From Girardia tigrina (lineage: Eukaryota), in NCBI GenBank assembly GCA_001938485.1, contig MQRK01236146.1:1-53841 (forward strand): a DNA stretch of 53,841 nucleotides. The letters run 5' to 3'. This document shows positions 5,153 to 7,768 of this stretch, in pieces. The position numbers were made by a program. Within the stretch, counting starts at the first letter, position 1, and every line of letters starts with the position of its first letter.

Positions 5153-7768
5153 TAATAATAATTGTAAAGCTCACTCTTTGTTCTCTAATAGATGCAGAAC
5201 AAAGGGGGAGTTTTAACAAATAAATTTCTTTATTTAGACTTTTCTTAATAATAAGAATACCGAATCCAATTTGTAAAGATATATTACCAGATATTAGTCT
5301 TGCTGGAGGTAACTCAAATCGATATCTTAAAATTGTTTAGAGTAAAAAAAATAATTTAACTCTGAATAAATAAATGACCAAGCTGACCAATTAAAATTAC
5401 TTCAAATACGACTCTTAATTATGTAATTTTAAATAGTTCAAAATCTTTGTATAAAATAGTCGAAAAATATGAAAGAGTTTTCAATTAATATTAGAACCAA
5501 ACTATGTATGGCACTATGCAGTTTGATTAACTTGATCAGTGTAGTGATGATACAACTTATTAATGGGAATGATAGAACTATAATCAAATAACAATTCTAC
5601 AAGATAACCAAACAAATTTTAATTAATAAAAACCGTACAAATGGTATTGGATCTTACACGGTGAATTTACAAAATGTAATCGGAAGGTTGGATGAACGAA
5701 GTCTCGAGATTAATTTTTGAATAATGTTTGTCGAAACCGGTGATAAATAGTCGGTCGGAAATTCAGTAATAATGATGATATTCGATACTTTAGTACCGAT
5801 AATAATAGTCAGCGATTTAGTAAACGAAAATGATACTCAAATACGTTGAGGATATTCAGTAATTCAGGAAATGATAAATGATCAGGAATTTTCATTATTA
5901 CTGCTTATCATATAAATTAATTATCTGACCAACAATAATGATAATCCATTTATGATATTACTGGTCAATATAATTTTAAATTCAAATTTTAATTTAAATT
6001 CGAAATCATACAATTAACTTATGTAAAAATAATTTCCTTCTTAATAATAATCTTCCTCTTTTTCTTTTTCTTACATAAAAATAAATTCTTTCTCTTTTTT
6101 CTTTTCATTTCCTTCATCTTTCCAAAAATAGTCTTTCATTCTTTCATTAAATATTCGTCTTTTGGAATAAATTAAAGTTTTTCTTTTATACCCACAGACA
6201 TACAAAGAATATAAAAAAATAAAACGCAAAAATTATTCACCACACACAAAGAAAACAATAAATTAACACATGCAAAGGACAGCCTTAAAAATTGTGACAC
6301 AAGCCAAATAAAAAATCTAACGAAACGAATACATAAAAAAAACGAATTGATGTCACCAGATTATTACCATATTATGAGGTTATAACAATAATCCCCCTGA
6401 TGATAAATGGAGAGTTATTGATTGTCATGTGTGGTTATGTTTACGAGTTTGATAATGGTGTTGGTTGAAACATTTTTATATTTACAGTGAATGTTCATTA
6501 CAATAATAATAATAATAATATTAATAATTGATAGCAGAGTTGGTTGCGCAGCGGTTGCGTTTTGGTGTTAGGTGATGGATTCCGGGTCGAGGGAAGAAAA
6601 TAATTACTAACATTTTTGATCCTCGGCCCATTGTTCCTTTATCCGGATCTAACCATAGTAATTCACAAAATAAATTTTGATCTGAAACATCTGTTCGTCT
6701 CATAATGCGCCTTATTTGCTCCATTGATTGAAAATCAGGTGAAAGACCACCGTGGCAGCAGAATATCGTTTCGTCAATTATAGCAGCCATTGGTAAGCAA
6801 CTGAAACTGTCCGTAAATGTTTTCCATAATTTAATATTGTATCGTCTCTTACATTCGTCTTAAAATCTATAGATCCGATTGATTGAGGTGTACTCGTGAT
6901 TTCCGAGAAATAAGTTCATAAGATTTTTAGACACGGATTCATTAGACGGTTCGAGTATTAAAACGTGTTCATAAGTTAAAATTGCTTCATCAAATCGTCT
7001 CAGGAATTCTAAAGCGGCAGCTTTTCGAGAATATCCTTTGGCCCAACCAGATTTCAATTTAATACACTCTTCTGTATCAGAAAGAGCGAAATCAATCAAG
7101 AAGAGCAAATAACATTTTATAGCTTCATGAATTTGTCCTGACTGTAAAGCCTTGTTGCCTTTCAATATGTCAGCATTTCGATAATTGTAGATCACCAAAA
7201 TATGACGAATCTCAATTCAAAATAATAACATTCCGTGTTAATAAACTTTTACTTAATTCAAAAGAAAAAAATGGCGACTTTCGATTATATACAAAATGTT
7301 TTAAAAGATAAATTCGCGCCAAAATACATAAATTAATTCGAATAAACAAATGTACAATTTTGTTATAATTTGATCGATTTACAGTCATTATAAAAATTTC
7401 AATTCGAACCTTTGTTTTTCTTCTTTTCGGCCAATCAGAAACGGCCACGCAATTCACTTAAGAAAGACAAACACACACAGGCACAACACATTCAACAATA
7501 ATCCCGAAAACACACAAACACACAAAAAGCTGCACTTTCACAAGAAAAAAACACGATCAATCACAAAGCCGAATATATGTCACAAATCAGAACTGATGGG
7601 ATTCATCAAGTGATTCTTTGATAGGGCTCGATCGATTAGTATCTTCAGATTTCACCAACAATCGTTCATCATCAACATTTTCTTCGATCACTTCTTCAAT
7701 TATATTTTCATCATCCATCGACACTCTCGCGATCAACTTCCATTACCTCGATCTCAAAATCATACTCG

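What the first reader, a model, noticed from the sequence alone, without database searches (positions are those of the whole stretch)
6521..7198. In-frame STI1/HOP-TPR::PP1 chimera that re-creates PP5-like architecture
Seen: the HOP TPR1 fragment runs in one frame into PP1 at ...VSKNLMN-LFLGNHE..., with a single TAA at 6860 and no intron. Known: TPR plus PPP phosphatase is the PP5 layout, but the catalytic part here is PP1 ([21 protein letters not shown]) and the TPR is HOP (KGYSRKAAALEFL), so two unrelated genes were joined. The N-terminal metal-binding GDxHG/GDxVDRG motifs are absent, so this copy cannot be an active phosphatase. Inference: the product of template switching or DNA-level shuffling; an intact or multicopy version may exist elsewhere.
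Basis: partly seen in the sequence, partly recalled or inferred. Interest (0 to 1): 0.72.

Follow-up and report, generated by a model that had tools for sequence, protein, structure and literature searches.

The report
Dead HOP–PP1 chimeric pseudogene fragment
A short, broken piece of DNA in which part of a co-chaperone gene (HOP/STIP1) is joined head-to-tail to the middle of a protein phosphatase 1 gene; it is a decayed gene-fragment mosaic of a known kind, not a new working enzyme.

Summary
On the minus strand, 7198..6521 reads as one frame of 226 codons with one internal stop; the other five frames carry 13-19 stops. The 5' half is a HOP/STIP1 TPR1-like piece (PDB 1elw 5e-15, 7kw7 2e-25) with a net 22-residue in-frame loss. 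The 3' half is collinear with PP1 catalytic-subunit residues 120-219 (2e-42, 64 of 82 identical). The join lies at about 6902-6916.

The "PP5-like architecture" is only nominal. The TPR is HOP-like (PP5 TPR only 2e-4). The phosphatase piece is about 100 of about 323 residues of PP1. There is no in-frame ATG before the TPR part, and there is an internal stop. This is a dead relic.

It is single-copy in the window and has no bracketing TIRs or LTRs. It has no poly(A), and the candidate 12-bp flanking repeat is not significant.

My best reading is a mosaic pseudogene built from intron-free (cDNA-like) fragments of two host genes, most likely joined by reverse-transcriptase template switching. DNA-level end-joining or gap-filling remains a serious rival. 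The parental loci, read support, RNA-seq and other copies could not be checked, because no eukaryotic collection was open. Interest is low.

The parts
6521..7216 (-). Whole stop-to-stop reading frame that carries the chimera (one broken mosaic gene fragment, first base to last)
   Evidence: one frame, one internal stop, no in-frame ATG upstream of ORF residue 94; 2 stops (one internal, one terminal) against 13-19 in the other five frames. GC is 33-45% against 20-30% in the flanks.
6911..7162 (-). HOP/STIP1 TPR1-like fragment (aligns to HOP residues 10-28 and 59-115; net 22-residue in-frame loss between them)
   Evidence: TPR_1 3.5e-08; 7kw7_E 2.1e-25, 1elw_A 5.4e-15, RPAP3 3e-13, PP5 TPR only 2e-4 to 4e-3.
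6902..6916 (-). Junction zone between the HOP-like and PP1-like parts (direct join, same orientation, same frame)
   Evidence: The last HOP-aligned residue and the first PP1-aligned residue are the same ORF residue, 96. The first unambiguous PP1 residues start at 99.
6614..6913 (-). PP1 catalytic-subunit fragment, collinear with PP1-gamma residues 120-219, containing one stop codon; the last 8 aligned residues are poorly conserved, so homology may end near 6638
   Evidence: about 2e-42, 64 of 82 identical, no gaps; residues 120-136. Metallophos profile positions 75-143 of 191.
6531..6613 (-). 83-nt GC-rich (46%) tail of unknown origin that directly follows the PP1 part
   Evidence: GC 0.458. 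No tRNA, no Rfam match, no Pfam match in the frames scanned, and no other copy in the window.
6502..6530 (.). Trinucleotide microsatellite, (AAT)n on the plus strand and (ATT)n on the minus strand, abutting the tail
   Evidence: families D1 and D3. Similar microsatellites occur at several other places in the window, so it is not specific to this locus.

Best explanation
This is a non-functional mosaic pseudogene. A 5' piece of a host HOP/STIP1 coding sequence (about codons 1-115, with an internal 22-codon loss) is joined directly, in the same orientation and frame, to an internal piece of a host PP1 catalytic-subunit coding sequence (codons about 120-219). An 83-nt stretch of unknown origin and a microsatellite follow.

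Shown: the identity, extent and collinearity of the two parts; the stop; the lack of a start codon; the lack of the parts of PP1 needed for catalysis; single copy in the window; and no transposon ends around it.

Inferred: both parts lack any intron-like interruption, are truncated inside their coding sequences, and lie in sense orientation. They therefore most likely derive from spliced mRNAs copied by a retroelement reverse transcriptase that switched templates. The order would be unknown 3' template, then PP1 mRNA, then HOP mRNA. The product would have been inserted in AT-rich, transposon-rich DNA and decayed since. It does nothing today as a protein.
For: The two parts and the junction are established.

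The frame is kept far better than chance: 1 internal stop against about 18 expected. This fits a fairly young copy of coding sequence.

Decay is visible. There is one stop, no in-frame ATG before ORF residue 94 and a 22-residue loss in TPR1. Identity to human PP1 is only 78% in a normally very conserved stretch.

PP1 residues 120-219 and HOP residues 59-115 are each collinear with no insertions.

Same-orientation direct fusion is one of the listed features of chimeric retrogenes, and double template switches give tripartite chimeras (PMC2104539, passages read).

The window carries retroelement remains that show reverse transcriptase activity in this genome: gag zinc knuckle and aspartic protease, and an RNase H-like RVT_3 match.

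No TIR or LTR pair brackets the locus, which argues against capture inside a DNA transposon or an LTR element.
Against: The classical hallmarks of LINE-made chimeras are not met.
- There is no poly(A) or recognisable 3' UTR after the PP1 part.
- Neither part is a full-length or 3'-complete RNA copy.
- The only candidate target-site duplication is a 12-bp repeat flanking 6396-7493. Repeats of 12 bp or more occur in 35 of 467 (7.5%) control region pairs of the same geometry.
- The 83-nt tail is not a known RNA and is not repeated in the window, so it cannot be called a LINE or SINE 3' end.

'No intron' is only informative if the parental genes have introns there, and this could not be checked. 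A 488-codon intron-free kinase ORF in the same window warns that the genome may be intron-poor in places.
Confidence: 0.5

Rival explanations
1. DNA-level shuffling. Fragments of two host genes, or of their older retrocopies, were joined by end-joining or gap-filling repair of a double-strand break, or by replication template switching. This could have happened next to a DNA transposon excision site, as proposed for single-copy Pack-TIRs in animals.
For: There is no poly(A), no significant target-site duplication, and both fragments are truncated at both ends. The neighbourhood is full of DNA-transposon remains: mariner HTH_48 at 1529-1807, MULE at 29091-29492 and a Tc1/mariner HTH at 43055-43414, and a perfect 108-nt inverted pair at 4334-5499. 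The abstract of PMC8277862 (abstract and outline seen) says single-copy Pack-TIRs arise mostly by transposition-independent gap filling.
Against: No TIR pair brackets the chimera. Both fragments are free of intron-like insertions. If the parents have introns, DNA-level copying would therefore need cDNA or older retrocopies as donors.
Confidence: 0.3
2. A living exon or young chimeric gene. The stretch is spliced into a transcript from upstream exons, and the TPR part, at least up to the stop, is translated.
For: The frame is unusually well kept: no frameshift in 226 codons. An AG dinucleotide after a pyrimidine-rich run lies just upstream of the open frame (read by eye). Elevated-GC open stretches lie upstream on the same strand at 7590-8304.
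Against: There is no in-frame ATG, there is an internal stop, and TPR1 is disrupted by a 22-residue loss. The upstream open stretches have no significant Pfam or PDB match; the best is RING-like at E 0.011, below cutoff. The single-sequence AF2 model of the TPR half has low confidence, mean pLDDT 51.7, which is uninformative either way.
Confidence: 0.08
3. Assembly artefact. Reads from the STIP1 and PP1 genes or cDNAs were wrongly joined in the contig.
For: The window has five N runs, so it is a draft-quality scaffold. Read support could not be examined.
Against: The junction lies in uninterrupted sequence more than 1.1 kb from the nearest N run, 8351-8519. Both parts are diverged and damaged (stop, internal loss, 78% identity to PP1). 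This is what an old genomic relic looks like, not a mis-join of intact genes.
Confidence: 0.05
4. A decayed true PP5-type gene, with the TPR and phosphatase parts of common descent from PPP5.
For: Only the domain order, TPR followed by a PPP fragment.
Against: The TPR half matches HOP at 5e-15 against PP5 at 2e-4. The phosphatase half matches PP1 at 2e-42, PP2A at 1e-19 and calcineurin at about 1e-15, and no PP5 chain is among the 60 best of 90 hits.
Confidence: 0.01

Closest known systems
Chimeric retrogenes and retropseudogenes made by LINE reverse-transcriptase template switching (bipartite and tripartite; PMC2104539, passages read)
   Same: Copies of different cellular transcripts are fused directly, in the same transcriptional orientation and without introns. 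A possible third part lies at the 3' end, and the setting is rich in retroelements.
   Different: Here both recognisable parts are internal or 3'-truncated mRNA pieces rather than a full-length 5' RNA plus a 3'-complete LINE or mRNA. There is no poly(A), and no significant flanking direct repeat.
Pack-TIR / Pack-MULE gene-fragment capture by DNA transposons in animals (PMC8277862, abstract and outline seen)
   Same: A mosaic of host gene fragments in a region rich in DNA transposons, present as a single copy.
   Different: No terminal inverted repeats or target-site duplication bracket the fragments, and the fragments are intron-free.
Protein phosphatase 5 (TPR domain followed by a PPP catalytic domain)
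   Same: The order of domain types: TPR, then a PPP-family sequence.
   Different: The TPR is HOP-type and damaged. The phosphatase is PP1-type and covers only residues about 120-219. There is no start codon and there is an internal stop.
Ordinary processed pseudogenes of housekeeping genes
   Same: Intron-free, decayed copies of highly expressed, highly conserved genes, lying in intergenic repeat-rich DNA.
   Different: Two genes are fused, each represented only by a fragment, and there is no 3' UTR or poly(A).

Membership tests
PP5-type TPR-phosphatase | N-terminal TPR domain of three motifs that is most similar to PP5's own TPR | tested here: not met
   only one TPR stretch passes the Pfam cutoff; the best matches are HOP (5e-15, 2e-25) and RPAP3 (3e-13), with PP5 TPR at 2e-4 to 4e-3. 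TPR1 has a net 22-residue loss.
PP5-type TPR-phosphatase | Complete PPP catalytic domain with the N-terminal metal-binding motifs, orthologous to PP5 | tested here: not met
   Metallophos profile positions 75-143 of 191 only. PP1-gamma residues 120-219 only. PP1 scores 2e-42, and no PP5 chain is among the 60 best of 90 hits.
PP5-type TPR-phosphatase | Uninterrupted ORF with a start codon | tested here: not met
   one internal stop, and no in-frame ATG upstream of ORF residue 94.
LINE-mediated chimeric retrogene (features as listed in PMC2104539) | Parts joined directly in the same transcriptional orientation | tested here: met
   both parts lie on the minus strand, and the alignments abut at ORF residue 96.
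LINE-mediated chimeric retrogene (features as listed in PMC2104539) | 5' part a full-length copy of a cellular RNA; 3' part a 5'-truncated copy that keeps its 3' end | tested here: not met
   The HOP part stops at about residue 115 of a 543-residue protein. The PP1 part ends at about residue 219 of 323 and is followed by unrelated sequence with no poly(A). Whether the 83-nt tail is a retroelement 3' end is unknown.
LINE-mediated chimeric retrogene (features as listed in PMC2104539) | Flanking short direct repeats (10-20 bp target-site duplication) | tested here: inconclusive
   a 12-bp exact repeat at 6384 and 7494; 35 of 467 control pairs (7.5%) do as well.
LINE-mediated chimeric retrogene (features as listed in PMC2104539) | Introns of the parental genes absent | not testable with these tools
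   No insertion interrupts either alignment, but the parental loci of this genome could not be reached.
Pack-TIR / Pack-MULE | Captured fragments bracketed by terminal inverted repeats and a target-site duplication | tested here: not met
   of 99 inverted pairs in 3000-11000, those spanning the locus are AT-rich and low-complexity, at 71-81% complementarity; no such pair in the whole-window self-comparison.
LTR-retrotransposon transduction of host gene fragments | Fragments lie between two long terminal repeats | tested here: not met
   none of the 15 repeat pairs of 60 bp or more in the window brackets 6.5-7.2 kb.
Helitron gene capture | Characteristic Helitron termini with a 3' hairpin | not tested
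   Read by eye only. A weak stem-loop at 6546-6560 is not followed by a convincing terminus. No Helitron model was available.

The most novel reading that the evidence does not exclude
The HOP::PP1 mosaic is one copy of a multicopy, transcribed family carried by a gene-fragment-capturing mobile element that has not been recognised. The 83-nt tail plus microsatellite would be that element's 3' end. Alternatively, it is a young spliced exon giving a TPR-only peptide. In either case the in-frame join and the complete absence of frameshifts over 226 codons would reflect recent or continuing constraint rather than luck.
Probability: 0.07. Interest if true: 0.5.

Novelty: new member of a known kind. 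Interest (0 to 1): 0.2.

Why it matters
It matters little by itself. This is one more example of how fragments of highly expressed housekeeping genes are copied, fused and left to decay in repeat-rich animal-like DNA.

It is useful as an annotation warning. A gene finder could call a false "TPR-phosphatase" or "PP5-like" gene here.

If the parental loci showed introns inside the copied spans, the locus would be a clean case of a double template switch landing inside two mRNAs in a non-mammalian genome. That would be of modest interest to people who study retroposition.

Tried and rejected
1. tRNA/SINE idea for the GC-rich tail 6531-6613. ARAGORN found 0 genes. Rfam found 0 matches at gathering score and only chance-level hits by E-value: mir-1898 at 2.6, SAM-SAH at 2.7 and malK-II at 0.2. 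Rejected.

2. Second copy or parental gene in the window. blastn of four sub-regions against the window returned only microsatellite or matches of 45 nt or less. None found.

3. Target-site duplication. The 12-bp repeat is not significant.

4. TIR or LTR brackets. None.

5. More gene fragments in the flanks. Ten open stretches between 5657 and 8304 were scanned against Pfam, and none reached a curated cutoff. Two were searched against PDB, and the best E-value was 0.35.

6. Twenty more open stretches elsewhere in the window, drawn from the 88 stretches of 70 aa or more listed, gave only transposon domains (HTH_48, RVT_3). I did not scan all 88.

7. Structure. The AF2 single-sequence model of the TPR half had mean pLDDT 51.7. 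That is too poor for a fold search, so none was run.

8. Prokaryote-type promoter and terminator scan. Irrelevant to a eukaryotic locus and not used.

9. Literature. No paper holds STIP1 + PP1 + chimeric + pseudogene. Ten of 13 papers were listed for 'protein phosphatase 1 / tetratricopeptide / gene fusion / retrocopy', and none is about such a fusion by title or abstract start.

10. The two halves of the frame were always searched apart.

Full report
**What is there**

On the minus strand, window 7198..6521 translates as a single frame of 226 codons. The open stretch runs upstream to 7216. From the window's base composition about 18 stops would be expected in 226 codons. The other five frames of the same stretch have 13-19. 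GC content is 33-45% inside the stretch against 20-30% in the flanks.

**The two halves**

I searched the halves before and after the stop separately and never sent a joined read-through to any tool.

The upstream half (112 aa):
- It matches Pfam TPR_1 (3.5e-08) and TPR_2 (5.3e-07) at residues 53-86.
- In the PDB it is closest to human STIP1/HOP: 7kw7_E 2.1e-25 and TPR1 domain 1elw_A 5.4e-15. RPAP3 follows at 3e-13.
- PP5's TPR domain scores only 2e-4 to 4e-3.
- Residues 13-31 align to HOP 10-28 and residues 40-96 to HOP 59-115. The offset changes by 22, so there is a net in-frame loss of 22 residues inside TPR1. By my count of the printed match lines, 40 of 76 aligned residues are identical.

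The downstream half:
- It matches Pfam Metallophos, but only profile positions 75-143 of 191.
- It matches PP1 catalytic subunits at about 2e-42. Residues 1-82 align to PP1-gamma 138-219 without a gap, with 64 of 82 identical.
- PP2A follows at 1e-19 and calcineurin at about 1e-15. No PP5 chain is among the 60 best of 90 hits.
- The 17 residues just before the stop align to PP1-gamma 120-136. That match has E 0.09-0.2 on its own, but it is exactly collinear with the rest.

The PP1-like part therefore covers residues about 120-219 of a protein of about 323 residues, with one codon of that span being a stop. The HOP alignment ends and the PP1 alignment begins at the same ORF residue (96), which puts the junction at about 6902-6916. 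The last eight aligned PP1 positions are poorly conserved, so homology ends between 6638 and 6614.

**Why it is dead**

- In the standard code there is no in-frame ATG upstream of ORF residue 94.
- There is one internal stop.
- The TPR1 piece has lost 22 residues.
- The phosphatase piece lacks everything before residue 120 and after about residue 219.

From general knowledge of PPP phosphatases (recalled, not from a call), the missing regions hold four of the six metal ligands. Identity to human PP1 is 78% in a stretch that is normally extremely conserved among animals. This suggests relaxed constraint, although a divergent parental paralogue cannot be excluded. A single-sequence AF2 model of the TPR half was of low confidence (mean pLDDT 51.7), and I did not use it.

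**Surroundings**

After the PP1 part come 83 nt of 46% GC (6531-6613) and then a trinucleotide microsatellite (6502-6530).
- The tail is not a tRNA.
- It matches no Rfam family.
- It has no Pfam match in the frames scanned.
- It has no other copy in the window.
- There is no poly(A) run downstream on the coding strand.

Upstream, 7217-7493 is AT-rich. Further upstream, open stretches at 7590-8304 on the same strand have no significant match. The best is a RING-like Pfam hit at E 0.011, below its cutoff, and PDB E-values are 0.35 or worse.

No inverted-repeat or long direct-repeat pair brackets the locus. A 12-bp exact direct repeat flanks 6396-7493. However, 35 of 467 control region pairs of the same size and spacing elsewhere in the window share 12 bp or more (7.5%), so it is not evidence of a target-site duplication.

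**The window as a whole**

The window is about 27% GC, has five N runs that I left alone, and is rich in transposon remains:
- a Mos1-type HTH at 1529-1807;
- a GIY-YIG-like ORF at 23602-24090 (a weak Eco29kI-family hit);
- a gag-like zinc knuckle and a gag-type aspartic protease on the minus strand at about 26.3-28.3 kb;
- a MULE transposase piece at 29091-29492;
- a Tc1/mariner HTH at 43055-43414;
- an RNase H-like RVT_3 hit at 38358-38708.

There is also an uninterrupted 488-codon protein kinase ORF at 45456-46919.

I do not take the window for human. Its composition and transposon content are those of an AT-rich invertebrate-like genome, and the likeness of the PP1 piece to human PP1 is ordinary conservation.

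**How it most likely arose**

Both parts are free of intron-like interruptions, truncated inside their coding sequences and joined directly in sense orientation. That pattern fits copies of spliced mRNAs fused by a reverse transcriptase that switched templates. Gogvadze et al. describe this for bipartite and tripartite chimeric retrogenes (PMC2104539, passages read). They list as common features full-length 5' parts, 5'-truncated 3' parts, random truncation sites, same orientation and flanking short direct repeats.

Only the same-orientation direct join is met here. The 3'-complete part, the poly(A) and the direct repeats are not shown. I therefore hold the template-switch model at about one half.

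The main rival is DNA-level joining by end-joining, gap filling or replication template switching. This has been proposed for single-copy Pack-TIRs in animals (PMC8277862, abstract and outline only). It fits the missing retroposition hallmarks and the transposon-rich setting. It needs intron-free donors, and no TIRs are seen.

A living exon, an assembly artefact and a decayed PP5 gene are less likely, for the reasons given under the rival explanations.

**Comparison with the known, and novelty**

This is a new member of a known kind: chimeric pseudogenes or gene-fragment mosaics. The PP5 resemblance is limited to the order of domain types, and every tested defining feature of PP5 fails. I found no paper describing a HOP::PP1 fusion (full-text word searches of the held library only).

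**What stayed unchecked**

The one open contig collection holds only bacteria and archaea, and I did not use it.

As a result the following are untested:
- the parental loci and their intron positions;
- junction microhomology;
- genome-wide copy number;
- read support;
- expression;
- dN/dS.

Supplementary files of the two papers were not seen. Those of PMC2104539 hold the element-by-element sequences, which might refine the comparison of junction types.

Noticed in passing
window 26346-28251 (minus strand): Retroelement-like (virus-like) stretch. It has a gag-like CCHC zinc knuckle (4.8e-06) and a gag-type aspartic protease (1.6e-04). It is spread over six adjacent stop-to-stop segments in two frames, so it is broken several times. 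No reverse transcriptase or integrase match was found in the pieces I scanned. Described only.
   Followed up: partly
window 45456-46919 (minus strand): Uninterrupted 488-codon ORF with a complete protein kinase domain (Pkinase 1.2e-32). It is only distantly like any solved kinase; the best is Aurora A at 1.2e-17. The roughly 190-residue N-terminal part is unmatched. It may be an intron-free lineage-specific kinase or a retrogene.
   Followed up: partly
window 4334-4441 and 5392-5499: Perfect 108-nt inverted repeat with 950 nt between the arms. This is a foldback- or MITE-like structure about 1 kb from the chimera. The 100% identity of the arms suggests a very recent origin or an assembly effect.
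   Followed up: no
window 8935-9282, with copies near 20559-20741, 28461-28558, 31878-32161 and 33166-33473: A repeat family of about 100-300 nt present in at least five places in the window, in both orientations, at 69-77% identity. It is an unclassified interspersed repeat.
   Followed up: no
window 42265-43770: A mariner/Tc1-like element. It has 135-nt terminal inverted repeats at 94.8% identity enclosing a transposase HTH piece at 43055-43414. The open stretch is only 168 codons, so the transposase is not intact.
   Followed up: partly
window 23602-24090 (minus strand) and 47613-48017 (plus strand): Two ORFs of 163 and 135 codons. The first gives a weak GIY-YIG-type nuclease hit (Eco29kI family, 7.5e-04, below cutoff), such as is found in Penelope-like elements (recalled). 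The second has no Pfam match.
   Followed up: no
window 8086-8304 and 7774-8082 (minus strand): Two open stretches in the same frame, separated by a single stop, just upstream of the chimera. The first has a sub-threshold RING-finger-like pattern (E 0.011-0.025). The second looks like a coiled coil. Neither has a PDB relative. They could be a further decayed gene fragment or an unrelated neighbour, and the stretch runs into the N gap at 8351.
   Followed up: partly
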